The notes: generated by a model from the letters alone, not told the origin. A stretch of 64,000 bases of DNA from a phage (GCA_019338205.1 GCA_019338205.1_4761.1); one strand, 5' to 3'; positions 1,605-63,700 are shown, numbered from the stretch's first letter. A program made the numbers and translations.

Positions 1605-1824
1605 TAGGGTATTCATCGTCCTTCTGGATTCAGAAAACTATCCAGAACTCTCTAAAACGCGTTTTCCGTGCGTTGTTGAAGCACACAAGGCATATGCACC
1701 AGATAAACAGTTTATCGTTATGGCGAGCGAAATAGAGAGGTTAGGGGCGATCCCTAAACATGATGAATATGTGTTTCGTAAGGCGTTCTCTGTGCCTCAT
1801 TTTGGTGTAGAGTTAATTCACTAA
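1570..1824 (+). CDS. hypothetical protein
   Basis: ORF overlapping previous gene end; start uncertain. Confidence 0.3.
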   Translation: MKSKTGFYNQCNRVFIVLLDSENYPELSKTRFPCVVEAHKAYAPDKQFIVMASEIERLGAIPKHDEYVFRKAFSVPHFGVELIH

Positions 1825-1839
1825 AATCATAAAAAGTTG

Positions 1840-1868
1840 TTGACAGGGGATCGCGTATCCCCTATACT
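1840..1868 (+). promoter_or_regulatory. sigma70-like early promoter with spacer palindrome GGGGATCGCGTATCCCC
   Basis: TTGACA 1840-1845, 17 bp spacer, TATACT 1863-1868. Confidence 0.6.
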
Positions 1869-1911
1869 ACACACATCAAAACGAAACACACTTTTCTTAA
1901 GGAGAATCAAA

Positions 1912-5741: not shown

Positions 5742-5770
5742 TTGACAATAAGAAATGGGAGTAGTAAAAT
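5742..5770 (+). promoter_or_regulatory. sigma70-like early promoter with GGGAGTA/TACTCCC inverted repeat across -10
   Basis: TTGACA 5742-5747, 17 bp spacer, TAAAAT 5765-5770. Confidence 0.6.
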
Positions 5771-5801
5771 ACTCCCATCTAATCAAGAAGGAGAATCAAC
5801 A

Positions 5802-6652: not shown

Positions 6653-6681
6653 TTGACATGATGAAACGGGAGTAGTAAGAT
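6653..6681 (+). promoter_or_regulatory. sigma70-like early promoter with GGGAGTA/TACTCCC inverted repeat
   Basis: TTGACA 6653-6658, 17 bp spacer, TAAGAT 6676-6681. Confidence 0.6.
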
Positions 6682-6712
6682 ACTCCCATCTAAACAACGA
6701 GAGGATTATATT

Positions 6713-8484: not shown

Positions 8485-10347
8485 ATGGAAAAACTAATCA
8501 AAGACATTACAGAGATCGCAACGGGTAAAGAAAACGAAGTAAGCAAAGAGAACGCGAACAAAGACGCGCGAACATTCCCGACACGTCGAGATCTGATTGC
8601 TGGTGCTGTGTCTAAACAGATTGCTAAAACCGTGTTACCTGAGCACATCTATAAAGCGCATGTAGACGGTGATATTCATTATCATGATATGGATTATGCA
8701 CCCGCTATGCCGTTTACTAACTGCTGTCTTGTTAATCTAAAAGACATGTTAGAGAATGGTTTTAAATTGGGTAGCGCACAAATCGAAAGTCCGAAATCAA
8801 TCGGCGTTGCTTGTGCTGTAACCGCTCAAATTATCGCACAGGTGGCAAGTCATCAATATGGCGGGACCACAATTGCAAATATCGATCAGGTGTTAGCGCC
8901 GTATGTTGAGAAAACATATCATAAACACCTTGCTGATGCCGAAACCTACGGAATCAAAGCTAATACTCTCTATGCACAAGAGAAGACAGAAAAAGAAACG
9001 CTAGACGGATATCAGGCGTTGGAATATGAGATCAACACTTTGTTCTCTACCAACGGTCAAACACCTTTTGTGACTTTAACCTTTGGTATGGGTACTAGCT
9101 GGGAAGAAAAACTGATTCAGAAAGCGATCTTGAAAGTTAGAATTAAAGGTTTAGGTAAAGATGGTATAACTCCGGTGTTTCCTAAGCTGGTGATGTTCTT
9201 AGAAGAAGGATTAAACCTTAAACCGGAAGATCCGAACTACGACATTAAGCAACTTGCATTGGAATGTTCTAGTAAGCGTCTTTACCCTGATTATATCTCT
9301 GCGAAGAATAACCGTAGTATCACCGGATCTAGTGTTCCGGTTAGCCCGATGGGTTGTCGTAGCTTCCTGGGTGTGTGGCATAATGAGAAAGACGAGGAAG
9401 TATTAGACGGACGTAATAACTTAGGTGTTGTGACTCTGAATCTTCCGCGTATTGCCCTTATTGCCTCGCGTCGTGCTGGTAAAGCGTCTGTAATGCGCAG
9501 AATTGAGCTATTCGAACAAGAGCTAGCTAATCGTATGCCTATTTGCTTTGATGCGCTCATGAGTCGCGTAGACGCTTTAAAAGGGGCTAAAGCCAATGTT
9601 GCTCCGGTGCTGTATACAGAAGGTGCATTTTTCCGTATTCATCAAAACGATGAAATTTTGGAAGTGCTGAAAGATGGTCGCGCTAGTATCTCTCTTGGAT
9701 ATATTGGTTTACATGAGGTATTGAGCGTCCTGTTTGGTGTTCATCCGTTTGATTCGGAAGATGCGCAGCGATACGGTAAACATATTCTTAAGATCTTGCG
9801 TCATTATACTGAAAAATGGAAGGATGAAACCGGACTTGGGTTTAGTCTTTACGGTACGCCAGCCGAGAGCCTTTGCTATCGATTTAATCGACTGGATCGA
9901 GAGCAATTTGGTATTGTTAAGGGTGCTACCGATAAAGACTGGTACACTAACTCATTCCACCTTGACGTAGACCGGAAAGTCACACCATTTGAGAAAATCG
10001 ACTTTGAGAAAGATTATCACTGGCTGGCGTCCGGTGGCATGATCTCTTATGTTGAGTTCCCAGACATGAAAAACAACCTGAAAGGTCTTGAAACTGTAGT
10101 AGACTATGCAATGGATAAATTGCACTACTTCGGTGTTAATACTCCTTCTGATGTATGTCATGTATGCGGATCTAATAAGGAAATGAGAGCGACCGAGTCT
10201 GGTTTTGTTTGCCCTGATTGCGGCAATGACAATCTGGAAAAGATGAATGTTATCCGTCGCGTTAGTGGATATCTTGGATCTGTTGATCTGCGTCCATTTA
10301 ACCACGGGAAACATTCCGAGATGGTAAACCGCGTTAAGCACATGTAA
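8485..10347 (+). CDS. nrdD: anaerobic ribonucleoside-triphosphate reductase (NrdD)
   Basis: 620 aa; C-terminal Cys cluster CHVCG..CPDCG and glycyl-radical motif RVSGYLG; uninterrupted (no intron evident). Confidence 0.85.
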   Translation: MEKLIKDITEIATGKENEVSKENANKDARTFPTRRDLIAGAVSKQIAKTVLPEHIYKAHVDGDIHYHDMDYAPAMPFTNCCLVNLKDMLENGFKLGSAQIESPKSIGVACAVTAQIIAQVASHQYGGTTIANIDQVLAPYVEKTYHKHLADAETYGIKANTLYAQEKTEKETLDGYQALEYEINTLFSTNGQTPFVTLTFGMGTSWEEKLIQKAILKVRIKGLGKDGITPVFPKLVMFLEEGLNLKPEDPNYDIKQLALECSSKRLYPDYISAKNNRSITGSSVPVSPMGCRSFLGVWHNEKDEEVLDGRNNLGVVTLNLPRIALIASRRAGKASVMRRIELFEQELANRMPICFDALMSRVDALKGAKANVAPVLYTEGAFFRIHQNDEILEVLKDGRASISLGYIGLHEVLSVLFGVHPFDSEDAQRYGKHILKILRHYTEKWKDETGLGFSLYGTPAESLCYRFNRLDREQFGIVKGATDKDWYTNSFHLDVDRKVTPFEKIDFEKDYHWLASGGMISYVEFPDMKNNLKGLETVVDYAMDKLHYFGVNTPSDVCHVCGSNKEMRATESGFVCPDCGNDNLEKMNVIRRVSGYLGSVDLRPFNHGKHSEMVNRVKHM

Positions 10348-10352
10348 TTTTC

Positions 10353-10384
10353 AGCCGATCCGAAAGGGTCGGCTTTTTCGTTTT
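10353..10384 (+). terminator. intrinsic terminator
   Basis: AGCCGATCCGAAAGGGTCGGCT hairpin + TTTTTCGTTTT. Confidence 0.7.
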
Positions 10385-11007: not shown

Positions 11008-11529
11008 ATGAAATCATTAAACCGTAAGCGTAAAGCACAACGACACAAAGAACGAGCTAAAAAGATTGCTATTGAACTCTGTGAGCGTGAGGATAGCTAT
11101 TTGTCTACTGGTCGTTTGTATACATTCCATGCATTGATTGATGGTAAGCCAGTGTTGCATAATCATGATTGCTTGGCACTGTTTCACGAGATCGAACCAA
11201 TCCATCGTGAATGTGATGACAACAAAGCAAAAGGTCAATATTTCCTTACGTGTTCGTGTGGTCATGCTGGTTGTGCTGGATATTGGGAACCTGTTACTAT
11301 CCGTGAGAAAAATGATACCATTCAATGGGTCGCCCGTACCCGCGATGGTTATGATAAAGGTGCTGATGGTACTGGCGATAACGTAGTTTACTTTAATCGT
11401 GATTGGTATTATATGGCGCGATGTATGATCCTGTTTTATCTTGACTCGATGCCGTATGAATATTTCAGTTTCCAGAATGGGACCGAACTGACAGGGAAGG
11501 AATGGTCTGAATACATTCGAAAAATTTAA
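11008..11529 (+). CDS. hypothetical Cys/His-rich protein
   Basis: GAGGTGA RBS; basic N-terminus; CSCGHAGCAGYW motif. Confidence 0.55.
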   Translation: MKSLNRKRKAQRHKERAKKIAIELCEREDSYLSTGRLYTFHALIDGKPVLHNHDCLALFHEIEPIHRECDDNKAKGQYFLTCSCGHAGCAGYWEPVTIREKNDTIQWVARTRDGYDKGADGTGDNVVYFNRDWYYMARCMILFYLDSMPYEYFSFQNGTELTGKEWSEYIRKI

Positions 11530-11538
11530 AATAAATGC

Positions 11539-11567
11539 TTGACGGGGATCGCGAGATCCCCTATACT
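11539..11567 (+). promoter_or_regulatory. sigma70-like promoter with spacer palindrome GGGGATCGCGAGATCCCC
   Basis: TTGACG 11539-11544, 17 bp spacer, TATACT 11562-11567. Confidence 0.55.
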
Positions 11568-11609
11568 ATATTCATCAAGACGAGATACAACTTTACAGGA
11601 GAATCAAAT

Positions 11610-12255: not shown

Positions 12256-12265
12256 GGTGATTATT

Positions 12266-12793
12266 ATGAAATGGGAAGTTGGTAAAACTTACAAGATTGA
12301 ATGCGAAGCGTCGAAAGCCGAACTAACTAAATTTTCGTCGTCTATTAACAGATGTATTGTTGACTTGTTGGCTGGTCGCCCGTTTAGGGTAGAAGACCTT
12401 GACGATGATGGTGATGTTAGAGAAATTACTGTTATTGGTAGTAATTTCGACTCTATGACGTTAAAAGAATCCCCTATTGGCTGTTCCGGCGTGTGGTTTT
12501 GGTCGGGTGAGCGTCGTTTCTTTACCGAAGTTACTATTGAACCTAAGATTCCAGATTCGGAAGAAAAAGAAGAAGACCTAACTTTAGAACGCCTGGGTCT
12601 GCTTATGGAAGCCTACGACATTCAGTTGATCGATAAGATGGGGTTACATAATAGCATTGCCAAAATTACTACCCTAGAAGGTATTAAGAGCGTACTGGAT
12701 GGTATGCCTAGCCGGATCGGTGCTATCCGAGAATACAAACAAACGCGCGACCGTATGATCCAATTAGAATCACGTATCAAAAATGAGAGATGA
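12266..12793 (+). CDS. hypothetical protein, MKWEVGKTY family paralog 1
   Basis: N-terminal MKWEVGKTYKIE; C-terminal helical tail. Confidence 0.55.
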   Translation: MKWEVGKTYKIECEASKAELTKFSSSINRCIVDLLAGRPFRVEDLDDDGDVREITVIGSNFDSMTLKESPIGCSGVWFWSGERRFFTEVTIEPKIPDSEEKEEDLTLERLGLLMEAYDIQLIDKMGLHNSIAKITTLEGIKSVLDGMPSRIGAIREYKQTRDRMIQLESRIKNER

Positions 12794-12797
12794 TATT

Positions 12798-13262
12798 ATG
12801 AAATGGGAAGTTGGTAAAACCTATGCGTGGAAAGATGTAAAAGATGCAAACCAATTTTTTAAATGGTATGATGTTGATTATTTGAAATATCTGAGATTAC
12901 CGTTTAAAGTTGCGTCGGTTGATGCGAAAAAAGGATACGTGCGGTCTGTATATCTTCATGATGGAACTTATATGAGTTCAACCGATGTAGGTCTATCTTG
13001 TTGGTTTCTGGATCATGACCGTAGCAGATTTGAAGAAATTATTATTCCAGAAGAATCTAAATTAATTGATCTTCTCAAGTTGGCGATGGATAATTATAAA
13101 ATCCGCTTTGAATGCAAATCACATGCGGCTATCGGTGCTAACGCATTGCGTCATATCTCCAGTTTTGAAGAGTTGAAAGATTTTCTTGACAAAATGCCGG
13201 AAAGAGTGCAAGCTATACAGGAAGCAGAGAAAGCATTAAACGAACTTGATAAAATCGGTTAA
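12798..13262 (+). CDS. hypothetical protein, MKWEVGKTY family paralog 2
   Basis: N-terminal MKWEVGKTYAWKD. Confidence 0.55.
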   Translation: MKWEVGKTYAWKDVKDANQFFKWYDVDYLKYLRLPFKVASVDAKKGYVRSVYLHDGTYMSSTDVGLSCWFLDHDRSRFEEIIIPEESKLIDLLKLAMDNYKIRFECKSHAAIGANALRHISSFEELKDFLDKMPERVQAIQEAEKALNELDKIG

Positions 13263-13274
13263 GGGGAATATATT

Positions 13275-14099
13275 ATGAAATGGGAAATTGGTAAAACTTA
13301 CACCTGGAAAGACGAAAACGCTAAAACTGAGTTTATTACTAACGGAGAAGGTGTTCTTTCTCCACTTAACAGCGATATTAGTGCAGCTATTGGTGACAAG
13401 CCATTTACCATCATCGAGATCGAGGGTAACGGTTGGATTGATGCAATAGAGCTAGACGGTGTTTATCATACGGCGAAAACTGCTACAGGAAAAGACATTT
13501 GGACTGCAACATATTTCTTTAGTCCATTCGATAGAAAATTCTTTCGTGAAGTTGAAGAAGTTCCCCAGAAATGGGAAGTTGGTAAAACTTATACTTGGAA
13601 AGATGTGAATGCTATGACAGACTTCTGCCATTATGCTGAAAACGCATCTAACCTTAATTATGTTATTGCACGAGCAATAAATTATAGACCTTTTACTGTT
13701 AAAAATGTTCGTCCATGTGGGCAAATTGATGTAATTGAAATTGATGGTAAAGACCATACTCTAATGAGCGCAACCGAAGATAGAGACCATAAAGGAACTA
13801 GCTGGTTTATTGATTCTGATAGAAAATTCTTTCGTGAAGTAGAAGAATTGGAAGTTATAACCACTGATTCTAAGATCGTTGGACAGTTGAAACGTCTGTT
13901 TAGTAGTCGTTACGGCCTGACAATGGTTAAATTTGGCGAAGCAAATGAAGGTAAAACCTTTGAACGTTTCGATGATTTCATTGCGGCACTTGACAAGATG
14001 GATGAAATCATGCAAGATCGCCAGAAGATTAAAGACCTTCAAGAAGACATTAAACGTCGTGAAGTTGAATTTTTGATTGGTAAAGAGCGAGGTTGGTAA
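13275..14099 (+). CDS. hypothetical protein, tandem double MKWE(I/V)GKTY domain
   Basis: MKWEIGKTYTWKD at N-terminus and QKWEVGKTYTWKD internally; repeated DRKFFREVEE. Confidence 0.55.
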   Translation: MKWEIGKTYTWKDENAKTEFITNGEGVLSPLNSDISAAIGDKPFTIIEIEGNGWIDAIELDGVYHTAKTATGKDIWTATYFFSPFDRKFFREVEEVPQKWEVGKTYTWKDVNAMTDFCHYAENASNLNYVIARAINYRPFTVKNVRPCGQIDVIEIDGKDHTLMSATEDRDHKGTSWFIDSDRKFFREVEELEVITTDSKIVGQLKRLFSSRYGLTMVKFGEANEGKTFERFDDFIAALDKMDEIMQDRQKIKDLQEDIKRREVEFLIGKERGW

Positions 14100-17855: not shown

Positions 17856-17865
17856 TGGCTTTATA

Positions 17866-17900
17866 AGGGAGACTCCGAAAGGGGTTTCCCTTTTTATTTT
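17866..17900 (+). terminator. probable intrinsic terminator
   Basis: GC-rich imperfect hairpin GGGAGACTCCGAAAGGGGTTTCCC + TTTTTATTTTT. Confidence 0.5.
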
Positions 17901-25849: not shown

Positions 25850-28528
25850 ATGTATTTTCTGTCATGTGAGCGAGTAGGTGATAAGATCTACGAGCGTTAT
25901 ATTGATTATGCTGGACAAGAACAAGAGCGTTACGTTGAATATACGCCAACATTATTTCATCATGCCGCGCCTGGTATGGTTACGAATTATAAAGATATCT
26001 ATGGCAAGCCTTGCATTGCTAAAAAATTCCCATCTATGAACGAGGCCAACAAATGGCGTAAAAAGATGGGAGAAATGGGGCAAGAGGCACTAGGGATGGA
26101 TGATTTTATCATCTCCTATCTGTCCGATACATATAAAGGCGAGATTCGATATGACCGAAATAAAATCCGTGTAGCGTGGGTTGATATTGAGGTCACTGCC
26201 CCAGAATTTCCTAAACCAGAAGAAGCGAAATATCCTATCGATGCAATTACGCATTATGATTCCGTACATGATCGTTTCTTTGTATTTGATTTGAAAGGAA
26301 AAAACGGTGAAATCTGGGAAGCAAGCAAGTCTATTCTTCGACCTGATATTGTGGAGCGCGTTGTTTATAACGTTTATGACACAGAAGATGAATTGCTGTT
26401 AGAATACATCCGATTCTTTGAGGAAAACCGACCCGTTGGTTTCACTGGCTGGAACACAGAAACATTCGATATTCCATATATCATTAAGCGTATCAGCAAT
26501 AAGTTTGGAAGTCGAACGGCAAACCGTTTAAGCCCGTGCGGTAAGATTAAATCCCGAATCTCACAGGATGATTTTGGCAACGAGCGTGAAGCATTTACGA
26601 TCATGGGGATCGAAAGCCTTGATTATATTGACCTGTACAAGAAATTTAGCTTTACGACTCAACCAACATATGCGTTAGATTATGTTGCTGAATATGAGAC
26701 AGGAATCGGTAAGGTTGATTATGATGGTCCGTTAAAGAAATTGCGTGATGACAATCATCAACTTTACATCGATTATAACATCGGCGACGTTGATCGTGTG
26801 CTGGCGATTGATAAAAAGCGTGGATTTATCGATCTTGTGTATAGTCTATGTTTCTATGCAAAGATTAAATTTAACCATGTTTATAACCCGATGAAAGTAT
26901 GGGATGCTATCATCTTCGGATCTCTGAAAGCTGAGGGTAAAGTAGTACCGGAAAATAAGATACAGCCTAAGCAGACTTATCCGGGCGCATTCGTAAAAGA
27001 ACCTGTGCCGAATGCTTACCGTTGGATGATGAGCTTTGACTTAACAAGTCTGTACCCATCTATTATTCGACAGGTTAATATTTCTCCTGAAACAATCGCT
27101 GGATCTTTTGATGCTGCACCGATGCACGAGTATATCAATAAAACTGCACCACGTCCGAGTGATGAGTATTCTTGCTCGCCTAACGGATGGATGTATAGAA
27201 AAGATATTCATGGTATCGTACCGATTGAGATTAAAAAGGTATTCGATCAGCGTAAGCAGTACAAAAACATGATGTTGGCATGTGATCGCAATGCTGAACT
27301 ATGTAAAGCGATTCTACACGATGAAAATCATGTTTATGGGGGAACCATTAGCTATAGCGTTGAAGTGCGTCACGACTTTGATGAAGCGTTTAAATCGATG
27401 CTTTCTGAATTAAGTAAAGATGCCTTAGAGAAATTGCTGGAAGAATGTAAAGACGAGTCGATCTTGTGCAATACAAACCAGCTTTCTCGAAAAGTTTTGA
27501 TTAACTCCCTTTATGGTGCGTTGGGGAATCCTAAATTCCGTTTTTATGATCTCCGTAACGCTAGTGCGATCACCTTGTTTGGTCAGCTTGCAATTCAGTG
27601 GATTGAGCGTAAGATTAACGAATACTTAAACGAGCTTTGCGGAACAACCGATTTTGCATATGTTCGTTATTGTGATACTGACTCCGTTTATGTGCTGGTT
27701 AACAATGTTGTTGATAAGGTTGGCGGGGAAGACCGTTTCGACGATACCGAAAAACTTGTTGACTTCCTTGATAATTTCGGTAAACATCGAATGGAACCGA
27801 TTATCGACAAAGGATATCGCGAGTTATGCGAGTACATGAACAACTACGAGCACTTGATGTTTATGGACCGCGAGGCAATTGCTGGTCCTCCGTTGAAATC
27901 TGCGGGTATCGGTGGATTCTGGACTGGTAAAAAGCGTTATGCTCTTAATGTTTGGGATATGGAAGGAACGCGCTTTGCTGAACCTAAGCTAAAAATCATG
28001 GGCTTGGAAACGCAACGTAGCTCTACACCTAAAGCATGTCAGAAATCACTGAAAGAATGTATTCGCCGTATGTTGCAGGAAGGGGAAGAATCGCTACAGA
28101 AATACTACGGTATTTTTGAGCAAGAATTTAGAAAACTTGACTATCTTGAGGTTGCTGCGGTATCATCTGCAAACAACCTACAGAAATACAGCGATTCAAA
28201 CGGGTATCCGATTAAGGGTTGTCCGTATGCGGTTAAGAGTGTATTGTGTTATAATCGTAATGCTCGAAAATTCGGACTAGATCCGATTCGTGAAGGCGAG
28301 AAGGTTATGATTGTACCGCTTAAAGATCGAAATCCGTTTGGAGAAATCTGTTTTGGTTGGTTGTCTGGTACTCGTATTCCTCCAGAAATTGAATCAGAGG
28401 TGTTGAAGTGGTTGGACTGGCCTTTGTTGTTTAATAAGACTTTCGTCAAACCACTGGAGAACATTACCACGGCTGCAAAGCTGCAATATGAAAAGGTGGC
28501 ATCGCTCACGGACCTGTTTGACATTTAA
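25850..28528 (+). CDS. 43: family B DNA polymerase gp43
   Basis: Exo motifs (DIEV, YNIGDVD), polymerase motifs (DLTSLYPSII, YCDTDS); ~892 aa. Confidence 0.9.
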   Translation: MYFLSCERVGDKIYERYIDYAGQEQERYVEYTPTLFHHAAPGMVTNYKDIYGKPCIAKKFPSMNEANKWRKKMGEMGQEALGMDDFIISYLSDTYKGEIRYDRNKIRVAWVDIEVTAPEFPKPEEAKYPIDAITHYDSVHDRFFVFDLKGKNGEIWEASKSILRPDIVERVVYNVYDTEDELLLEYIRFFEENRPVGFTGWNTETFDIPYIIKRISNKFGSRTANRLSPCGKIKSRISQDDFGNEREAFTIMGIESLDYIDLYKKFSFTTQPTYALDYVAEYETGIGKVDYDGPLKKLRDDNHQLYIDYNIGDVDRVLAIDKKRGFIDLVYSLCFYAKIKFNHVYNPMKVWDAIIFGSLKAEGKVVPENKIQPKQTYPGAFVKEPVPNAYRWMMSFDLTSLYPSIIRQVNISPETIAGSFDAAPMHEYINKTAPRPSDEYSCSPNGWMYRKDIHGIVPIEIKKVFDQRKQYKNMMLACDRNAELCKAILHDENHVYGGTISYSVEVRHDFDEAFKSMLSELSKDALEKLLEECKDESILCNTNQLSRKVLINSLYGALGNPKFRFYDLRNASAITLFGQLAIQWIERKINEYLNELCGTTDFAYVRYCDTDSVYVLVNNVVDKVGGEDRFDDTEKLVDFLDNFGKHRMEPIIDKGYRELCEYMNNYEHLMFMDREAIAGPPLKSAGIGGFWTGKKRYALNVWDMEGTRFAEPKLKIMGLETQRSSTPKACQKSLKECIRRMLQEGEESLQKYYGIFEQEFRKLDYLEVAAVSSANNLQKYSDSNGYPIKGCPYAVKSVLCYNRNARKFGLDPIREGEKVMIVPLKDRNPFGEICFGWLSGTRIPPEIESEVLKWLDWPLLFNKTFVKPLENITTAAKLQYEKVASLTDLFDI

Positions 28529-33269: not shown

Positions 33270-34298
33270 ATGATTTACTACGCAGATTATGAAATAGCGG
33301 AAAAAGCCATATACGGCGAACGAAATTTTAAACGGTTGCATACTAGCTCATTTACGCTGGTCTGTAGTTGTCCGATCTGCGGTGACTCAAAGAAAAATCA
33401 TACTCAAGCGCGATTCCGTATCTATACCTATAAGGATAGTTTGCGTTGCGGCTGTTTCAACTGTAACTACAATCAGCCATTAGGTGAATTTCTCAAACAG
33501 TATAAGCCGGACCTATTCAGGGAATGGCTTATGGAACGACGGAAGGAACAAGGCGACCACAAGAACACCACGTTCAAGCCACTGAAAAAGGTAGAAAAGC
33601 CGGAGATTAAGAAAGTGCAAACATTGCCTTTCTGCGAGAGATTAGATACTCTTCCGGCTAATCATCCTATAATAAAGTATGTCAGTGATCGCTGTATTCC
33701 TCACGATAAATGGGATCTTCTGTATTTCACGAGAGAATGGCAAAAGGTAGCAAATCACATTAAGGCTGATACTTTCAAGAATCCACAACCTGAACCGCGT
33801 TTAGTGATTCCTATCTTTAACCGCGAGAACAAGATAGAATCCATTCAGGGGCGAGCATTGAGAAAGGATTACGGAAAGACCAAATATATGACGATTAAAA
33901 CTCATGAGTTAGCGAGTAAGGTCTATGGTCTTGAACGCGCCGATCCGAGTAAACCAGTGTATTTCTTAGAAGGTCCGATCGATTCATTGTTTATTGATAA
34001 CGGGTGTGCAATTACTGGCGGTACTTTGGGATTAGATGAAATCCCTTTCCCAGACCAGCGAGTGTTTGTACTTGATGCGGAACCACGGTCTGCCGATACA
34101 ATGCACCGACTGGAAAAGTTTATCAATGCAGGGGAAAAGATTGTATTGTGGGACCGTTGCCCGTGGCATTCTAAAGACGTTAACGCCATGATTCAGGACG
34201 AGGGCGCTACACGCGACCAGATCATGGAATATATCAAAGAGAACACCGTACAAGGTCTGATGGCTAAAATGCGGTTTATGAAATATTGTAAATTTTAA
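33270..34298 (+). CDS. 61: DNA primase gp61
   Basis: N-terminal zinc ribbon CPICGDS..CGCFNC; TOPRIM-like core; 342 aa; adjacent to gp41. Confidence 0.8.
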   Translation: MIYYADYEIAEKAIYGERNFKRLHTSSFTLVCSCPICGDSKKNHTQARFRIYTYKDSLRCGCFNCNYNQPLGEFLKQYKPDLFREWLMERRKEQGDHKNTTFKPLKKVEKPEIKKVQTLPFCERLDTLPANHPIIKYVSDRCIPHDKWDLLYFTREWQKVANHIKADTFKNPQPEPRLVIPIFNRENKIESIQGRALRKDYGKTKYMTIKTHELASKVYGLERADPSKPVYFLEGPIDSLFIDNGCAITGGTLGLDEIPFPDQRVFVLDAEPRSADTMHRLEKFINAGEKIVLWDRCPWHSKDVNAMIQDEGATRDQIMEYIKENTVQGLMAKMRFMKYCKF

Positions 34299-34312
34299 TT
34301 AATGAGGTGAAT

Positions 34313-34831
34313 ATGTCAGAATTTAATTCTTGTGCTGGTCTGGTTAACGAAAAAGATATTAACGCGGCTATCGCCGCATATCATCACGCGATTGCAGAAG
34401 GTAAAGATCCGTTTCAGGTGATGCTAGAAATGCAAACTGGTTTGCAGGTTGCATTATCCGAAAAATTTGATTGGGTCCCAAATCCAACTAAGCTAGAGAC
34501 TTGCGGTGAAATGCTGGATTGGATGCAACGGATGGATGACGCTATCGCAGACGAAACACGAGAGCTTTACACATCGCTGGGTGGAATGTCCAATGGTAAA
34601 GATGCAAGTGCAATCTGGAAAATGTGGAAAAAGAACCACGGAGAAGCGCGAGCGCGTAAATTCTCTGAACTGTCACCGGAAGATCAGCTTGAAGTGAAAT
34701 TTGAATTTGTGGACGCGATCCACTTCATTCTGTCAAAGATGATCCCGCTGGGTATTGACGCTCAAGAACTCTTTATTCTGTACTATCTGAAAAATGCTGA
34801 AAACTTCGCCCGTCAAGAACGCGGCTACTAA
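34313..34831 (+). CDS. MazG-like NTP pyrophosphohydrolase (gene 56 dCTPase family candidate)
   Basis: acidic helix motifs (DDAIADETRE, EVKFEFVDAIHFIL) and size ~172 aa; position beside primase. Confidence 0.45.
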   Translation: MSEFNSCAGLVNEKDINAAIAAYHHAIAEGKDPFQVMLEMQTGLQVALSEKFDWVPNPTKLETCGEMLDWMQRMDDAIADETRELYTSLGGMSNGKDASAIWKMWKKNHGEARARKFSELSPEDQLEVKFEFVDAIHFILSKMIPLGIDAQELFILYYLKNAENFARQERGY

Positions 34832-34838
34832 AAATTAG

Positions 34839-34867
34839 TTGACACTACTCTATAATGGTTTTATTAT
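34839..34867 (+). promoter_or_regulatory. candidate sigma70 promoter
   Basis: TTGACA 34839-34844, 17 bp spacer, TATTAT 34862-34867. Confidence 0.35.
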
Positions 34868-34897
34868 GCCTCCCGTCGAAAGATTGGAGGCTTTTTT
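34868..34897 (+). terminator. terminator-like hairpin that sequesters the downstream Shine-Dalgarno
   Basis: GCCTCC..GGAGGC stem + TTTTTT; GGAGG of 3' arm is the only RBS for ATG 34901. Confidence 0.55.
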
Positions 34898-34900
34898 ATT

Positions 34901-35404
34901 ATGCAATTTACACCAGAAGAACTTAACATCATTGATGAAGTGATGAACTCTAAAGAAAATATCGATATGTCGATCCTTAATGGATTGATCGAAAAGACTG
35001 AGCGGTTAGTGCATCATGAAGCCTTGTATCGCGGTGTGAGCAAAAGAGAAGGCCGTAAGCTGGATACCTTAATTGTTGGTGATTCTTTCGTTGTAGAGCG
35101 TCCTATGAGCTTTACGCCACTGCAATCAACAGCAGAGGACTTTGCAACCGATGTTTATGCAACAGGAAAGATTATTGCAATAAAACCTACCAAGCCTTGC
35201 ATGAATTATTACGAACATGCTATTGACCGAGTGGTGTCTAAAGAGTATGACAATCCGACTACTCGACTGTCTTTGTATGCTATGTTGGCAGATGAGCGCG
35301 AGTGCATATACAAGACAGGGACGACCATGATCCTTGATGAGATCGAGGAAGTTTACGCGTGTAATGGCGATCTGATAGAGATTTACAAATTTTCTTTAAT
35401 TTAA
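34901..35404 (+). CDS. candidate ADP-ribosyltransferase (ModA/ModB-like)
   Basis: R-S-ExE-like arrangement (LYRG, STAED, ADEREC) and synteny upstream of dda; weak. Confidence 0.3.
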   Translation: MQFTPEELNIIDEVMNSKENIDMSILNGLIEKTERLVHHEALYRGVSKREGRKLDTLIVGDSFVVERPMSFTPLQSTAEDFATDVYATGKIIAIKPTKPCMNYYEHAIDRVVSKEYDNPTTRLSLYAMLADERECIYKTGTTMILDEIEEVYACNGDLIEIYKFSLI

Positions 35405-35407
35405 GTG

Positions 35408-35436
35408 TTGACAGCACAAACCAGATAGACAATAAT
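35408..35436 (+). promoter_or_regulatory. sigma70-like promoter
   Basis: TTGACA 35408-35413, A/T-rich -10 region, C/A-rich leader. Confidence 0.4.
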
Positions 35437-35465
35437 ACACCCATACCAACTAAGGAGAATCAATT

Positions 35466-36221
35466 ATGAAACTGTTTGCTTTTAAATCTAACGAAGAATT
35501 GGCGCTGGTTGTTTTCCGTCTGAACTCTATCATGGCTGGCGCTTCACGTCGCAACAAAGACTTCTCTATGAGCTTAGTCACTGTGCGTAACATTTACCGT
35601 CAGACTCATTGCGCATATTCAGGTGAAGCGTTCGGTGAAGGTGATGATGGACTCTCCTTAGAGCGCATTGATTGCAATCTAGGATATGTTGATGGCAATG
35701 TAATTCCGGTTAAACTGAAATACAATTCTTTCCGTGGCAATCACACTATCGAATCTCTTAAAGAGATCCAGGAACTAGGAACTAACGGTAAACTTTCTGA
35801 TGATGAAATTGCCCTACGTGCGAAGTACATCGAGTGGATCGAACTTAACGAGAATCGCATCAAAAATCAGGAAATAGCAATCGAAGAAAAGAAGTTAGCA
35901 ATCGAGCGCCACAAAAAGCACAACGAACCGGAGAAAGCAGAGGCAGCCGAGCGAGCGATTAAAAATACTCTCTTCCGTATGGAAGAACGTTATCAGAAAA
36001 TTACAGATCTCAAGCAAGCCCTTAGCGAAATCAACAAGAAAGAAGAAAAACTTAAGGCTATTGCAAACAATACCGAAGTCGTGCTAAAATATACCAGCGT
36101 TTTGATTGAATCTCTTTCTAAGTATGAGAACTTAACGCCAGCACAAAAAGAACGCGTGAAATACGGGCTTCCGATTGATGCGTCGTGGATTGAATTGATG
36201 AAAGCGAAGGTAGGTTTATAA
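35466..36221 (+). CDS. hypothetical protein with coiled-coil C-terminal half (Srd-position)
   Basis: 251 aa; AAGGAG RBS; synteny only. Confidence 0.5.
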   Translation: MKLFAFKSNEELALVVFRLNSIMAGASRRNKDFSMSLVTVRNIYRQTHCAYSGEAFGEGDDGLSLERIDCNLGYVDGNVIPVKLKYNSFRGNHTIESLKEIQELGTNGKLSDDEIALRAKYIEWIELNENRIKNQEIAIEEKKLAIERHKKHNEPEKAEAAERAIKNTLFRMEERYQKITDLKQALSEINKKEEKLKAIANNTEVVLKYTSVLIESLSKYENLTPAQKERVKYGLPIDASWIELMKAKVGL

Positions 36222-39371: not shown

Positions 39372-39470
39372 GTCATATACTTGACAATCACTCAATTTTT
39401 AATATGATTGTTGCAGCCGTCTTTGTGGCGGTTGCAGTAAGTTATGGTTATGTTATGAAGAGGTTTAATA

Positions 39471-49232: not shown

Positions 49233-49261
49233 TTGACGTAAAGAAACGGGAGTAGTAATAT
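49233..49261 (+). promoter_or_regulatory. sigma70-like promoter with GGGAGTA/TACTCCC inverted repeat
   Basis: TTGACG 49233-49238, 17 bp spacer, TAATAT 49256-49261. Confidence 0.55.
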
Positions 49262-49293
49262 ACTCCCATACCAAACGAAAGAAGGAGAATCAC

Positions 49294-49506
49294 ATGAAAT
49301 CTAGTGAGCAAGTAGTGACTGAATTTATGAGCTACGAAGGAAACCGCATCTTTGGACGTTCTCAAGTTCGCGAGATCGTAGAAGAAGTTGCGGGAGAGTT
49401 TGCGGAATCTGGTCACGTTATCACGCAAGAACGTAAAGAAGAAGCAGTAAGCCAGATCATGGCTATGCAGAAAATGCGTATTAATGCACGAGCGGGTAAA
49501 AATTAA
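49294..49506 (+). CDS. hypothetical protein
   Basis: 70 aa; AAGGAGAATCACATG. Confidence 0.5.
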   Translation: MKSSEQVVTEFMSYEGNRIFGRSQVREIVEEVAGEFAESGHVITQERKEEAVSQIMAMQKMRINARAGKN

Positions 49507-49516
49507 AAAATAGTTG

Positions 49517-49545
49517 TTGACAGGGGATCGGCGATCCCCTATACT
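49517..49545 (+). promoter_or_regulatory. sigma70-like promoter with spacer palindrome GGGGATCGGCGATCCCC
   Basis: TTGACA 49517-49522, 17 bp spacer, TATACT 49540-49545. Confidence 0.6.
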
Positions 49546-49576
49546 AAACTCATCAAGACAACGAAGGAGAATCAAA

Positions 49577-49739: not shown

Positions 49740-49768
49740 TTGACACCGGATTAAGGGAGTAGTAAGAT
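49740..49768 (+). promoter_or_regulatory. sigma70-like promoter with GGGAGTA/TACTCCC inverted repeat
   Basis: TTGACA 49740-49745, 17 bp spacer, TAAGAT 49763-49768. Confidence 0.6.
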
Positions 49769-49802
49769 ACTCCCATCAAGACAAAACACTGAGGAATATA
49801 TT

Positions 49803-60783: not shown

Positions 60784-63700
60784 TTAGTCTTCCCAGATAA
60801 AGTCTACGGTACGAGTCAGATTATTGGCGATGATTTTAACATTACCAACTTTGATCCAATCACGAACCGTCATAGAGTTCATTAAACCACCTTCTGCAAC
60901 TACTGCCCCGATTTCCTGAGCGGTAGGCTTATTCTGTTTGGTGTAAATTTCACCCCATGCGGTCCATTGACCACCAGTACCGGAACGGATATAATGTTTA
61001 TGAGTACCATCGGGGGACCAAAGCTGGGTAAGCCCGTCCGCGTCAGTACCCCATTGCATCAGAGTACCGTTTTTCTTCTCTGGATAAGTTTCTTTGATGT
61101 TCTGGGTAGAAACGCGCATATTCCAGAAACCGATGTTACCAATTGCTGGTGCAGTAGTAGCGATCGCTTCATGCTTAACTGATACAATAGACGCATTATC
61201 CATAATCAATTTACCAGTCATTGTATCACCAGCATTCTTAACAAACTGACGATTAAGAACTTCGTCTGCGTTTCCTGCGTGGACGATCTGATATTTCTGT
61301 CCGGCAATCTCTGTAGTAAGCGTCTGATAACCTGCTTTGATGTTAACACTTCCACCGTGACCGATATTCAGCATACCATCTGGGGAACGAGTCATTGCCG
61401 GATTAGACTGGTCAACAATGTATAAACCGCCTTGTTTCGCATACAGGTTGCGACCTGCAATAAAGTCTCTATATGCTGTCGCGTCGCCATTGTGTTTCAT
61501 AGCAAAGGCGTAATGCTCAACGACTCCACCATCATTGATTTTACCGAAAGCGATAGCATCACTATCAACAACTTGCGCTGTTCCAGTACCACCAACGATA
61601 ATAGACCATGAGTTTTTCATGCCTTCCGATGCGGTTGTGCCATGCAGAGTAATTCCGGTGTGTCCGTCAACTCCACGCTCACCCAACACCAGATGACCAT
61701 TACTCGGATCATCAGTAGAGTTCTTAGTCACAGACAGAGTTTCAAAGGAACCAGATTTTAAACAATCTAAATCGCCCTTCACGTTAACGTTTTTATTAAA
61801 CGTGTAATTGCTCTCAATGGTCTGGTCAATGTCTCTACGCGCCCATTTAGCGGCCTCTACGTCACCCAATTTCAAACTATTCTGAGCGGTTGCCATCTTA
61901 GGTAAGAAATTAGCAAGTGCGTAGTTTAATCCTTTAGGGGTAACAGCAATTCCGTCATGCTGGTAGTTTCCTAGTTCTTGAGTAGAACCTTGCAGATTGT
62001 CACCAACAAAACAGTTTTCCTGAGTAGCAACTTTCAAGAAACCACGACGAGCTTCGGTTGCTTTCCATGTATCCTCTGTCTGAACAACATATTTGAAGTT
62101 CTTCGGAGAAATTGCTACATTAGCCAGTGTACCAGCCACGGTTTCGGCTTGAGTACCAACGCGGATAATACCTTCTTTACCTTCGGTGGCCTTTTTGCCT
62201 TGCAGCTTTTTAGGAGTGATGATTGTAGTATCATCTTGACCAACATCCGTAAGCTGAGTAGTAGCAACTTTAGCGACACCTTTTGTGTCTTCGGTTGCAT
62301 CAAGACCTCTGATCATGATACCTTGCCACAAGTCACCAGTAAGGTTAAGCCCCTGAGTCGGGTCTACTTTCAAACGCTGTGCATTCTCAAAGAAGGTTTT
62401 AATCTTCAATGGGGTAGAAATGCGAGCATCGTCACGACCTGCGTCAAACTCTTCTTGAGTTGCAATTTCTGCTAAACCATGTAAAGTTTCCGTTGCGCGG
62501 CGAGTATGCAGCTTTTTAGGCGTGATGATATGGTTATCACTTTGACCTAAGTTTGTTTCTTCCTGAGTTGCAATTTCAGCGATACCAGTACGCGATTCGG
62601 TAGCAGTACGTTTCGTTAGCGTGCGAGTCGTGATTAGTAAAGCATCTTGCGGGGTTGATTCTGTAGCCCCTTGCACTTCCGCGTCAGTTGCCAGATACCC
62701 AACACCACGGGAAGTTTCGGTCGCCTTAACTTCGTTGATGTTTTGCGGAGTAACGATTTTAGCGTGGTCATTGATGTTATAGATCCCTGTACCAGCTTCA
62801 CCCCTTAGAGCGGCAGCATTACCGCCTACCTGAACAATTTCAGCGATACCAGCAAGATCCTCTGACGCTCGACGCTCTTCTAACTTCTTAGGAGTGATTG
62901 CGCGGGTATCGTCTAAACCTTCGTTGGTTTCATGTTGAGTTGCAATTTCCATCACACCACGACGGTCTTCGGTAGCAACACAGTCATTTAACTTTTTAGG
63001 TGTAACGATAACATCATCCAGGAAGCTGGAACCAGTATCTTGATGCGTTTCCGCTTGAGTTGCAATGCGAGCAATACCGCGTCGAGTTTCGTTGGCTGTT
63101 TTATTAGCCAGAACCTTTGGAGTCACCGCAACTTCGTCGCTAGGATTCTCTTCATGGTTTTTATTCGTTTCAGTCTGGGTAGCCAGTGCAATTACACCAA
63201 CACGATCTTTACGAGTCGGATCTACTCGTTCTACAATCGGGTGAGCATGTGCCACCAACCAGTATTTCTTACCATCATCACCTTCTGAATAAGAGAACTC
63301 CAGATAAGGTACATAATCATTTGCAGCGTTGAAAGACAATTCAGATACTCCCGTCCATGTATCGGTCCCATTGAATGGGTACTCGCTACGCTTAGGAAAC
63401 TGAACCGTGTTTTTCTGCATAAGGATTTTTGTATCCTCTTCTGAGGTAATGATTCGGCAAGTCTGGTTTCCGCGCATATACTGCATAGAAACTTGAATAC
63501 GATCACCCGGCTCGACATTGGTCGGTAAAGTCAAGGTAACATCACGATCACCAAATACTGCAACATAGCTATTAGGGGATAAGCGAGTATCACTAATGAT
63601 AGGATTCAAGCGAACAGACTGATCACCATCCCACAAACGCCATAAGTTTTCCGGTTTGTCAAATATGAATACACCATGACCGCTACGCTTACCAACAATT

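What the first reader, a model, noticed from the sequence alone, without database searches (positions are those of the whole stretch)
34839..34900. Terminator-like hairpin that sequesters the Shine-Dalgarno of the next gene, directly after a promoter
Between the MazG-like gene and the next ORF, the sequence GCCTCCCGTCGAAAGATTGGAGGC followed by TTTTTT forms a 6 bp GC stem with a U-run. The GGAGG in the 3' arm is the only plausible SD for the ATG at 34901, 10 nt downstream. A TTGACA-N17-TATTAT promoter lies immediately upstream, so transcripts from it would begin in or just before the hairpin. This looks like an attenuator or translational operator controlling the downstream gene, which is a candidate ADP-ribosyltransferase and potentially toxic.
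Basis: seen in the sequence. Interest (0 to 1): 0.5.

Follow-up and report, generated by a model that had tools for sequence, protein, structure and literature searches.

The report
Known phage promoter-terminator cassette (PeSL)
The hairpin is real, but it is one of the already published promoter-plus-stem-loop cassettes (PeSLs) of RB49-type T4-like phages: it most likely stops and silences transcripts arriving from the upstream genes, while the gene's own promoter starts RNA inside the hairpin and so escapes it.

Summary

The window is a Krischvirus (RB49-like T4-type phage). The genes are 56 (dCTPase) and a modB-type ADP-ribosyltransferase.

The element is already on record. Nolan et al. 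2006 list this exact hairpin as the RB49 terminator "modB<--56", overlapping early promoter Pe:9496. Arbiol et al. 2010 defined such composites in RB49/phi1 as PeSLs.

The "attenuator of its own promoter" reading does not fit the geometry. The expected start site (34874/34875) lies after the 5' arm, so own-promoter RNA cannot form the main stem. Predicted SD accessibility is 0.00 in read-through RNA and about 0.4-0.5 in own RNA.

Best reading: an intrinsic terminator and translational mask for upstream transcripts, fused to an insulated early promoter. This is the logic of T4 gene e and I-TevI. It also marks recombination boundaries.

One new point: modB homologues in seven other T4-like genera carry analogous promoter-embedded hairpins that cover the SD and the AUG.

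No start site, termination or translation was measured. Interest is low.

The parts
34307..34831 (+). Gene 56 (dCTPase / NTP pyrophosphohydrolase). It is the last gene of the upstream transcription unit, and its transcripts run into the hairpin.
   Evidence: ORF. PHROG 173 at E = 5e-37. Annotated as gp56 in RB49, GEC-3S and others.
34830..34838 (+). A-rich stretch AAAAATTAG directly upstream of the -35 box. It is UP-element-like and is the AT-rich module of a PeSL.
   Evidence: Sequence. The same AAAAA..GTTGACA module recurs in PeSL repeat family D1. PeSL anatomy is described in PMC2839356.
34839..34844 (+). -35 box TTGACA of the early (sigma-70) promoter of modB.
   Evidence: Invariant in 13 genomes, including JSE where the adjacent spacer is replaced. 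Annotated as minus_35_signal in GEC-3S. Part of RB49 Pe:9496.
34845..34861 (+). 17-nt spacer. It contains a TATAAT at 34851-34856 that is not a conserved -10 box.
   Evidence: The TATAAT is TATCAT in ELT3 and is replaced in JSE, while TATTAT stays invariant. No usable -35 box lies 16-18 nt upstream of it.
34862..34867 (+). -10 box TATTAT.
   Evidence: Annotated as minus_10_signal in GEC-3S.
34868..34873 (+). 5' arm GCCTCC of the main stem. It is also the discriminator (-6 to -1) of the promoter, so it is present only in RNA that comes from upstream.
   Evidence: The geometry follows from the -10 position. RB49 early promoters prefer C at -3 to -1 (PMC1524935).
34874..34875 (+). Predicted transcription start of the modB promoter (7-8 nt after the -10 box). 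C34874 is also the unpaired partner of T34885 in the hairpin.
   Evidence: Inferred from sigma-70 spacing rules and from the RB49 promoter model of Nolan et al. That model places T(-7) at RB49 9454, so position 0 is 9447, which is window 34874. Not measured.
34875..34884 (+). Inner stem GTC/GAT around a GAAA (GNRA) tetraloop.
   Evidence: Invariant in all relatives. GAAA loops also cap other terminators of this window, at 10353 and 17865.
34886..34891 (+). 3' arm GGAGGC. GGAGG (34886-34890) is the Shine-Dalgarno of modB.
   Evidence: Annotated as ribosome_binding_site inside the annotated terminator in Ec_Makalu_002 and Ec_Makalu_003.
34892..34900 (+). U-tract TTTTTTATT. It is the terminator tail and at the same time the SD-to-AUG spacer.
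   Evidence: The run length varies from 5 to 7 among relatives.
34868..34891 (+). The whole hairpin. It equals the published RB49 intrinsic terminator 'modB<--56' (RB49 9430-9453).
   Evidence: TransTerm confidence 100 with a 10-bp stem, in Additional file 6 of PMC1524935. Coordinates verified on the RB49 sequence.
34901..35404 (+). modB-type ADP-ribosyltransferase gene, the gene served by the cassette.
35408..35436 (+). Next early promoter (TTGACA-N17-AATAAT), in front of srd. It has no hairpin, so modB transcripts run on into srd. It is the right-hand conserved border of the modB module.
   Evidence: Annotated as a promoter in GEC-3S. RB49 Pe:8927. A conserved island in L014.

Best explanation
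The element is a PeSL (promoter-early stem-loop): one compact intergenic cassette that does three jobs.

1. **Terminator.** On RNA arriving from the upstream genes (primase 61, dCTPase 56), the sequence folds into a GC-rich hairpin followed by a U-run. It acts as an intrinsic terminator and closes that transcription unit.
2. **Translational mask.** Any upstream RNA that reads through still carries the hairpin. The hairpin locks the modB Shine-Dalgarno into its 3' arm, so such RNA is poorly translated.
3. **Insulated promoter.** The near-consensus sigma-70 early promoter sits so that its discriminator is the 5' arm of the hairpin. RNA polymerase therefore starts at about 34874/34875, after that arm. 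The gene's own mRNA has a 26-27-nt leader with a free SD and no terminator.

The net effect is that modB, a toxic-type ADP-ribosyltransferase, is expressed only from its own early promoter and is insulated from its neighbours.

At the DNA level, the same conserved cassette marks the borders of exchanged gene modules.

**Shown here:** the sequence anatomy, the predicted folds, the conservation, the mosaic borders, and identity with published predictions. **Inferred:** the start site, the termination efficiency and the translational effect.
For: **Anatomy and fold**
- Sequence and predicted structure.

**Identity with published RB49 features**
- Terminator 9430-9453 'modB<--56' and promoter Pe:9496 (9446-9496) overlap by 8 nt. 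The coordinates were checked on the RB49 sequence.
- GenBank records annotate the promoter (GEC-3S). Others annotate the terminator with the RBS inside it (Makalu_002 and Makalu_003).
- PeSLs were defined in RB49/phi1 with about 51-52 copies. One subclass has the stem-loop downstream of the -10 box.
- The stem-loop of another PeSL (211/210) cut lacZ expression about as much as rrnB T1. Another PeSL gave about 13,000 Miller units as a promoter (PMC2839356).
- The window itself holds PeSL repeat families.

**Start-site geometry and SD accessibility**
- SD unpaired probability is 0.00 for RNAs that begin at or before 34868. It is 0.39-0.50 for RNAs that begin at 34873-34876.
- Among 19 promoter-gene pairs in the window, this is the only robust case of that switch.

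**Conservation**
- The boxes, arms, loop and SD are invariant. The spacer, the internal mismatch and the T-run length vary.
- JSE keeps TTGACA-N17-TATTAT although half of the spacer is replaced.
- The island 34790-34940 is 90-100% identical in a contig whose modB protein is only 75% identical.

**Same logic in other genera**
- The modB upstream regions of T4, RB69, S16, F48, JD18, EnC15 and QL01 all fold into hairpins. The 3' arm holds the SD and the AUG. The 5' arm covers the -10 box and discriminator of modB's own early promoter and ends at -2 to +4 relative to the predicted start.
- Their z-scores are -3.3 to -7.0, and many pair types are kept at each position.

**Known precedent**
- T4 genes e, soc, 49 and I-TevI (PMC3014915).
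Against: - No transcript 5' or 3' end, termination efficiency or translation rate was measured for this element, here or in the papers I could read.
- The start site is inferred from spacing rules. If it lay at or before 34868, the model would fail.
- The stems are invariant within Krischvirus, so there is no covariation at this locus. The compensatory changes come only from architecturally similar hairpins in other genera, which are not alignable with this one.
- The high conservation could reflect recent recombination or homogenisation rather than selection.
- The predicted SD accessibility of the own transcript is only about 0.4-0.5, because weak alternative folds of -4 to -7 kcal/mol exist.
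- The SD-to-AUG spacing of 10 nt is on the long side.
- The stem is GCCTCC/GGAGGC, not the G-run/C-run typical of RB49 PeSLs. The element also does not belong to the window's sequence-repeat families D1 or D5.
Confidence: 0.62

Rival explanations
1. Plain terminator plus plain promoter. The hairpin is only the intrinsic terminator of the 61-56 unit. Its overlap with the SD and with the promoter discriminator is a by-product of packing signals into a 69-nt intergenic space. Masking of the SD has no regulatory consequence, because almost nothing reads through.
For: - Canonical terminator shape. TransTerm confidence is 100.
- Phage genomes are tightly packed.
- Other terminators in the window sit just upstream of promoters without touching an SD, at 10353 and 48690.
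Against: - An analogous overlap (SD and AUG in the 3' arm, own promoter's -10 region in the 5' arm) recurs upstream of modB in seven other genera. Their hairpins are not terminator-shaped, because they run into the coding region and have no U-tract.
- That recurrence argues that masking the start region is itself selected.
Confidence: 0.22
2. First reader's model. The hairpin is a leader attenuator or translational operator that acts on transcripts from the adjacent promoter. It terminates or silences most of them until some signal opens the stem.
For: - The promoter and the hairpin are adjacent.
- The downstream product is likely toxic (PMC3014915, on the lethality of ModB over-expression).
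Against: - The expected start site at 34874/34875 lies after the 5' arm.
- A start at or before 34868 would be 1 nt or less after the -10 box, which sigma-70 promoters do not do.
- The alternative TATAAT at 34851-34856, which would include the hairpin in the transcript, has no -35 box and is not conserved.
- No competing antiterminator fold was found, and there is no Rfam match.
Confidence: 0.05
3. Primarily a DNA-level element. The conserved cassette, and perhaps its cruciform-capable inverted repeat, serves mainly as a homology patch or protein target for recombination that shuffles gene modules. Mini-circle formation has been reported for PeSLs. On this view the RNA-level effects are secondary.
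For: - The borders of divergent alleles fall next to the cassette. The gene 56 allele switches at about 34800 in eight genomes.
- The modB allele in L014 is bounded by conserved islands at 34790-34940 and 35420-35480.
- The homing-endonuclease insertion in JSE joins inside the promoter spacer.
- The PeSL shuffling model and mini-circles are described in PMC2839356.
Against: - This reading is not exclusive of the RNA-level functions.
- The borders lie about 40 nt inside the flanking genes rather than in the hairpin.
- JSE preserves promoter spacing and boxes despite the exchange, which points to selection on promoter function.
- No recombinase site is known.
Confidence: 0.08
4. Target of a phage RNA-binding regulator. 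The exposed GGAG of the own transcript would be cut by the RegB endoribonuclease. Alternatively, the U-rich SD-AUG spacer (UUUUUUAUUAUGCAA) would be bound by the RegA translational repressor, shutting modB off after the early period. The hairpin would then modulate access.
For: - RegB cleaves GGAG in the SD sequences of early T4 mRNAs, and RB49 has a regB gene (PMC3014915).
- RegA represses AU-rich start regions of early mRNAs (same review).
- The resemblance of the spacer to RegA sites is from memory only.
Against: - Nothing here tests binding or cleavage.
- Many genes carry GGAG.
- This would be an additional layer and does not explain the hairpin itself.
Confidence: 0.03

Closest known systems
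PeSL (promoter-early stem-loop) cassettes of RB49/phi1 (Arbiol et al. 2010, PMC2839356; Comeau et al. 2014, PMC4122927)
   Same: - Same phage group.
- Same order of modules: the upstream gene's stop codon in an AT-rich stretch, a near-consensus sigma-70 promoter, a stable stem-loop proposed to terminate upstream transcription, then the SD and ATG of the next gene.
- The published subclass 'stem-loop downstream of the -10' fits.
- It is associated with gene-module borders.
   Different: - The stem is GCCTCC/GGAGGC rather than a G-run/C-run.
- The hairpin is too long to lie 'just before' the start site, so the start site splits it.
- The 3' arm is the SD itself.
- It shares only the generic modules with the window's repeated PeSL families.
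- I could not see the paper's figures or supplementary list, so I cannot say whether this copy is among the 51 counted.
T4 genes e (lysozyme), soc, 49 and I-TevI: start-region hairpins with a promoter inside the 5' arm (reviewed in PMC3014915)
   Same: - Long transcripts from upstream carry a helix that sequesters the SD and/or the AUG.
- Transcripts started from a promoter that overlaps the 5' strand of that helix lack it and are translated.
   Different: - Those promoters are late (gp55, TATAAATA), and the device delays expression. Here the promoter is an early sigma-70 type, and the device restricts expression to the gene's own early transcript.
- Here the hairpin also has a U-tract and is terminator-shaped.
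- The effect is untested here.
Rho-independent (intrinsic) terminators of E. coli and its phages
   Same: - GC-rich stem, tetraloop and an immediately following run of 6 U.
- Located 36 nt after the stop codon of a co-oriented gene.
- Predicted by TransTerm at confidence 100 in RB49.
   Different: The tail doubles as the SD-AUG spacer, and the stem doubles as promoter discriminator and SD.
Lambdoid 'morons' (a gene flanked by its own promoter and terminator)
   Same: A self-contained expression unit that is insulated from neighbouring transcription.
   Different: - Here the terminator and the promoter are fused into one upstream cassette that is repeated through the genome. The cassette is itself thought to be the site of exchange (discussion of PMC2839356).
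- No terminator follows modB.

Membership tests
PeSL (Arbiol et al. 2010) | Near-consensus sigma-70 early promoter in an intergenic space, oriented towards the next gene | tested here: met
   TTGACA-N17-TATTAT, an 11/12 match. Invariant in relatives. Listed as RB49 Pe:9496.
PeSL (Arbiol et al. 2010) | [quoted passage not shown] | tested here: met
   TAAAAATTAG directly before TTGACA. The same module occurs in repeat family D1.
PeSL (Arbiol et al. 2010) | Stable stem-loop overlapping or adjacent to the promoter (five positional subclasses) | tested here: met
   -15 kcal/mol hairpin that starts at the base after the -10 box. This fits the subclass 'downstream of the -10'.
PeSL (Arbiol et al. 2010) | Stem typically built from a G-run and a C-run (GGGG...CCCC) | tested here: not met
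   The stem is GCCTCC/GGAGGC. The paper says 'frequently' and 'generally', so this is typical rather than obligatory.
PeSL (Arbiol et al. 2010) | SD and start codon of the downstream gene at the 3' end of the cassette | tested here: met
   GGAGG at 34886-34890 and ATG at 34901.
PeSL (Arbiol et al. 2010) | Association with insertion, deletion or replacement borders between related phages | tested here: met
   The gene 56 allele border is at about 34800. The modB allele in L014 is bounded by conserved cassettes. The JSE endonuclease insertion joins inside the spacer.
PeSL (Arbiol et al. 2010) | Demonstrated promoter and terminator activity | not testable with these tools
   Shown by the authors only for other copies: 206/205 as a promoter and 211/210 as a stem-loop.
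Intrinsic terminator | GC-rich hairpin immediately followed by a U-rich tract, downstream of a co-oriented gene | tested here: met
   Six outer G/C-rich pairs plus three inner pairs, then T6-A-TT. It lies 36 nt after the stop of gene 56. TransTerm confidence is 100 in RB49.
Intrinsic terminator | Transcript 3' ends at the U-tract | not testable with these tools
   No Term-seq or Northern data were found for Krischvirus.
T4 gene e / I-TevI type start-region hairpin with internal promoter | SD and/or AUG base-paired in transcripts that come from upstream | tested here: met
   By prediction only. SD unpaired probability is 0.00 in RNAs that start at or before 34868.
T4 gene e / I-TevI type start-region hairpin with internal promoter | A promoter overlapping the 5' strand, so that its transcripts lack that strand | tested here: inconclusive
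   The geometry fits: the -10 box ends at 34867, the 5' arm is 34868-34873, and the predicted start is 34874/34875. The start site is not mapped.
T4 gene e / I-TevI type start-region hairpin with internal promoter | The internal promoter is a late (gp55, TATAAATA) promoter, giving delayed expression | tested here: not met
   The promoter is a sigma-70 early type, and no TATAAATA is present. The element works like this family but is not a member in the strict sense.
Leader attenuator / riboswitch | The whole terminator lies within the leader of the regulated transcript, with an alternative antiterminator fold or ligand-binding domain | tested here: not met
   The predicted start is inside the hairpin. 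No competing fold was found. No Rfam family matched at E <= 0.1.

The most novel reading that the evidence does not exclude
The Krischvirus hairpin is the local form of a device conserved across at least eight genera of T4-like phages. The DNA of modB's own early promoter (the -10 box and discriminator) encodes the strand that pairs with modB's SD and AUG. As a result, the toxic ADP-ribosyltransferase can be translated only from transcripts that start at that promoter, and never from read-through RNA. Krischvirus alone has fused this mask with an intrinsic terminator. I did not find this described for modB in the papers I could read.
Probability: 0.4. Interest if true: 0.4.

Novelty: already known. 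Interest (0 to 1): 0.18.

Why it matters
For this locus there is little new. The promoter, the terminator and the composite class (PeSL) are all published or annotated for RB49-type phages.

The practical value is a correction of the mechanism. The hairpin should be read as a stop and mask for upstream RNA, with the gene's own promoter starting inside it. It should not be read as an attenuator of that promoter.

A modest general point is worth a short experimental test. Putting the anti-SD strand into a gene's own promoter DNA is an economical way to make expression depend strictly on that promoter. T4-like phages appear to use this arrangement repeatedly in front of modB, and in front of T4 motB.2. 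ModB is now of wider interest as the enzyme that attaches RNA chains to host proteins (PMC10468400).

The cassette is also a compact natural "insulator" part: terminator, promoter and RBS in 69 nt.

Tried and rejected
- **Covariation at the locus itself.** All 13 Krischvirus genomes and two IMG/VR contigs have invariant stems. ModB is 99-100% identical within the genus, and the next relatives are below 31%. No test was possible. The only changes hit the internal mismatch: C>T in AV108 and T>C in L014.
- **Pattern scan of IMG/VR** with both arms left free. It gave only 2 hits and no compensatory variants.
- **The search for related loci with a multi-genus ModB alignment.** Single-protein scans gave only close relatives.
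- **The spacer TATAAT (34851-34856) as an alternative -10 box.** Rejected: it has no -35 box and is not conserved.
- **A second SD-masking case in the window (27759).** Rejected: it lies inside a coding region and has z = -1.5.
- **Rfam.** Only chance-level hits.
- **Pfam for the downstream protein.** No hit. Its identity rests on PHROGs, tblastn and the conserved R-S-ExE residues.
- **The RB69 'modB' TransTerm terminator.** It turned out to lie inside the upstream ORF and is not the analogous hairpin.
- **Literature for mapped start sites.** Desplats 2002, Tiemann 2004 and Miller 2003 are not held. No T4 or Krischvirus genome-wide start-site dataset was found.
- **MAFFT/RNAalifold on the seven non-Krischvirus leaders.** The alignment was partly out of register, with 5 of 14 pairs compensatory. 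I therefore used an SD-anchored pair table instead.

Full report
**1. What is in the sequence**

The window around the finding reads as follows:

...gene 56 stop TAA (34829-34831) - AAAATTAG - TTGACA (34839-34844) - 17 nt - TATTAT (34862-34867) - GCCTCC C GTC GAAA GAT T GGAGGC (34868-34891) - TTTTTT ATT - ATG (34901).

- The promoter scan scores TTGACA-N17-TATTAT at 11 of 12.
- RNA folding of 34860-34910 gives one dominant structure (79% of the ensemble, -15 kcal/mol). It has six outer pairs, a C.U mismatch, three inner pairs and a GAAA tetraloop. The z-score is -3.6 against dinucleotide shuffles.
- GGAGG (34886-34890) is the only SD candidate, 10 nt before the ATG.

**2. Where the window comes from and what the genes are**

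- Region 34300-35500 is 99.3-99.7% identical to Krischvirus genomes such as RB49, GEC-3S and kaaroe. These are RB49-like members of the T4-type Straboviridae.
- The upstream genes are primase 61 (33270-34298) and dCTPase 56 (34307-34831).
- The downstream gene (34901-35404) is annotated modB. It matches PHROG 832 'RNA polymerase ADP-ribosylase' at E = 1e-20. It is 27-31% identical to T4-type ModB proteins, and the Y-R-G, S-F and E-x-E residues are invariant. Pfam found nothing.
- srd, Y01A and dda follow. All of these genes are on the + strand.

**3. The element is already on record**

- The GEC-3S GenBank record annotates exactly this -35/-10 pair as a promoter.
- The Ec_Makalu_002 and Ec_Makalu_003 records annotate a terminator over the hairpin, with the ribosome-binding site inside it.
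- The supplementary tables of Nolan et al. 2006 (PMC1524935) list an RB49 TransTerm terminator at 9430-9453 (- strand), labelled 'modB<--56', with confidence 100 and a 10-bp stem. They also list an early promoter Pe:9496 spanning 9446-9496.
- I checked on the RB49 sequence that 9453..9430 is the hairpin. I also checked that the last T of the -10 box is 9454. The two published features therefore overlap by 8 nt. The promoter model's position 0, the putative start, is 9447, which is window 34874.
- Arbiol et al. 2010 (PMC2839356) described about 51 such composites in RB49 and 52 in phi1 as PeSLs. A PeSL has an AT-rich region holding the upstream stop codon, a sigma-70-consensus promoter, a stable stem-loop proposed to terminate or attenuate upstream transcription, and then the SD and ATG.
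- They showed that the stem-loop of one PeSL reduced lacZ expression about as much as rrnB T1, and that another PeSL is a very strong promoter.
- The window itself is full of PeSLs. There are 18 TTGACA-N16-18-TANNAT sites on the + strand, against 1.05 expected. Many carry stem-loops that bracket the -10 box. Repeat families correspond to the promoter, stem-loop and SD modules (D1, D5, D2/D9).

**4. Why the 'attenuator of its own promoter' reading fails**

- With the -10 box ending at 34867, sigma-70 RNA polymerase is expected to start 7-8 nt later, at C34874 or G34875. The pyrimidine-purine step favours G34875. This is established knowledge of start-site selection, and it agrees with the RB49 model above.
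- The 5' arm GCCTCC (34868-34873) is the promoter's discriminator and is not part of that transcript.
- I folded RNAs with different 5' ends, all running to 34940. The mean unpaired probability of the SD is 0.00 for every start at or before 34868. It is 0.13 at 34870 and 0.39-0.50 for starts at 34873-34876, where only weak alternative folds of -4 to -7 kcal/mol remain.
- The TATAAT inside the spacer (34851-34856) would give a start upstream of the hairpin. It has no -35 partner. It is mutated in ELT3 (TATCAT) and replaced in JSE, while TATTAT is invariant.
- No competing antiterminator fold and no Rfam family were found.

**5. Most likely mechanism**

- RNA that arrives from genes 61 and 56 contains both arms and the U-run. 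It should terminate at about 34895-34900.
- This is the only terminator-shaped site on the + strand between 31967 and 40941.
- Any read-through RNA keeps the modB SD locked in the stem.
- RNA that starts at the cassette's own promoter lacks the 5' arm. It cannot terminate there, and its SD is free.
- No terminator follows modB. The next promoter (35408-35436, in front of srd) has no hairpin, so modB transcripts continue into srd-dda.
- The cassette is thus an insulator that makes modB expression depend on its own early promoter.
- This is the logic documented for T4 genes e, soc, 49 and I-TevI. In those genes, long early transcripts sequester the start region, and a promoter that overlaps the 5' strand gives translatable RNA (PMC3014915). 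The difference is that those promoters are late ones.
- Over-expressed ModB is lethal to E. coli (same review), which gives a plausible reason for tight control.
- All functional steps are inferred. None was measured.

**6. Comparative evidence**

*Within Krischvirus*
- The boxes, both arms, the loop, the SD and the ATG are invariant in 13 genomes.
- The variable positions are the spacer, the mismatch base C34874 (T in AV108) and the T-run length of 5-6.

*A metagenomic relative*
- An IMG/VR contig (L014) encodes a ModB that is only 75% identical and a diverged gene 56.
- It keeps an island at 34790-34940 at 90-100% identity.
- The only hairpin change is at the other mismatch base (T34885>C), and its T-run has 7 T.
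- The modB-srd promoter region is a second conserved island. modB therefore behaves as a module bounded by two conserved cassettes.

*Other mosaic borders*
- Eight genomes carry a divergent gene 56 allele (40-82% identity per 50-nt bin over about 34350-34800) that switches to about 100% identity from about 34800 on.
- In JSE, a homing-endonuclease gene on the opposite strand is inserted between gene 56 and modB. The junction lies inside the promoter spacer, yet TTGACA-N17-TATTAT is preserved.
- These borders fit the PeSL 'linker' model of modular shuffling. They also mean that conservation alone cannot be read as selection on RNA structure.

**7. An extension beyond the finding**

Because the local stems never vary, I looked at modB in other genera: T4, RB69, S16, F48, JD18, EnC15 and QL01.

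- Each has a T4-type early promoter (TTTAC[AT]-N17-TATGAT, TATAAT or TAGTAT) directly upstream of modB.
- Each has a strong hairpin whose 3' arm contains the SD and the AUG. The 5' arm covers the -10 box and discriminator and ends at -2 to +4 relative to the predicted start.
- The free energies are -15.5 to -26 kcal/mol, and the z-scores are -3.3 to -7.0.
- The arms differ between genera while pairing is kept. Examples are T4 GATATGATAGCTTCTG/CGGAGGCTATCATGATT, F48 GTGTTAGTATCTCTT/AGGAGATACTAACAT and QL01 ATGACCTCT/GGAGGTCAT.
- An SD-anchored table shows 2-4 pair types at most positions. RNAalifold on an imperfect MAFFT alignment still finds 5 of 14 pairs with double changes.
- IMG/VR variants add further small compensated changes.
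- As a control, only modB among 19 promoter-gene pairs in the window robustly shows the 'masked in read-through, open in own RNA' switch. The other hit, at 27759, lies inside a gene and is not significant.
- In the first 50 kb of T4, modB and motB.2 show the switch (z = -4.5). dmd has a PeSL-like hairpin around its -10 box that does not reach the SD.
- The Krischvirus hairpin is shifted downstream of the -10 box. It is the only one followed by a U-run, so it combines the mask with a terminator.
- I did not find the modB hairpins described in the two PeSL papers. For T4/PST they place the stem-loops upstream of the promoter. The T4 post-transcriptional review lists only e, soc, 49, I-TevI and some endonuclease genes. 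Several key T4 papers were not readable, so prior description cannot be excluded.

**8. Verdict**

- The element is a PeSL whose promoter and terminator halves were both already predicted for RB49.
- The mechanism is best described as upstream-transcript termination and SD masking, with an internal and therefore exempt early promoter.
- Novelty: already known. Interest: low.
- The only part that might merit follow-up is the cross-genus promoter-embedded mask in front of modB.

Noticed in passing
L019:355-430 (T4), L018:780-855 minus strand (RB69), L020:330-402 (S16), L021:327-402 (F48), L022:205-282 (JD18), L023:255-330 (EnC15), L024:312-384 (QL01): In seven other genera of T4-like phages, the region upstream of modB folds into a strong hairpin (z = -3.3 to -7.0). 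The -10 box and discriminator of modB's own early promoter pair with the SD, the spacer and the AUG. The arms differ between genera while pairing is kept.
   Followed up: partly
L025:8128-8205 minus strand (T4 motB.2); L025:20520-20600 minus strand (T4 dmd): T4 motB.2 has a promoter-embedded hairpin (-24 kcal/mol, z = -4.5) with the -10 box in the loop and the SD (GAGGA) in the 3' arm. dmd has a similar hairpin around its -10 box (z = -4.5) that stops short of the SD.
   Followed up: partly
window 34350-34800: Eight Krischvirus genomes (TB34, AV108, KFS-EC, ELT3, phiS, SSG23, Makalu_003, OZ035808) carry a divergent allele of gene 56, at 40-82% identity per 50-nt bin. It switches to about 100% identity at about 34800, just before the cassette. 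Four of them (TB34, AV108, ELT3, phiS) are annotated with an HNH/homing endonuclease between genes 61 and 56, and KFS-EC is equally diverged there but unannotated.
   Followed up: partly
L004:524-1510 (phage JSE); corresponds to window 34790-34855: JSE has a homing-endonuclease gene on the opposite strand, inserted between gene 56 and modB. Homology to the window resumes inside the promoter spacer, yet TTGACA-N17-TATTAT is preserved. An inverted repeat TGTGATC...GATCACA lies just upstream of the new -35 box.
   Followed up: partly
L014:1-2300 (IMGVR_UViG_3300005711_000037); window 34790-34940 and 35420-35480: A metagenomic Krischvirus-like contig has a ModB that is only 75% identical. The two flanking promoter cassettes are 90-100% identical, as expected if modB is exchanged as a module between conserved cassettes.
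   Followed up: partly
window 1823-1882, 11522-11581, 49500-49559 (family D1); 5742-5778, 6653-6689, 49233-49269, 49740-49776 (family D5): These are repeated PeSL families. [quoted passage not shown] D5 has GGGAGTAG-TAAGAT-ACTCCC with the -10 box as the loop. A shared SD-ATG module, GAGGATTATATTATG, occurs 9 or more times.
   Followed up: partly
window 39381-39440: A second promoter (TTGACA-N16-TATGAT) is followed immediately by a long hairpin, 39408-39440, with 14 pairs, and no clear U-run. It is possibly another 'stem-loop downstream of the -10' PeSL.
   Followed up: no
window 12262-13629; 793-1085; 62019-63090: There are tandem paralogous short ORFs that begin ATGAAATGGGAAGTTGGTAAAAC (families D4, D6), a duplicated ORF start (D8), and a periodic repeat with spacings of 108-120 nt and their multiples near the end of the window (D3, D7, D10).
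   Followed up: no
window 10353-10374, 17865-17892, 34868-34891: Three + strand terminator-shaped hairpins in the window share a GAAA tetraloop.
   Followed up: no
L003:669-701 (phage TB34 record): The TB34 GenBank record annotates the same terminator on the strand opposite to the genes. On that strand the hairpin is followed by ATAATAAAACC, which is not a U-tract, so the annotated strand looks wrong.
   Followed up: partly
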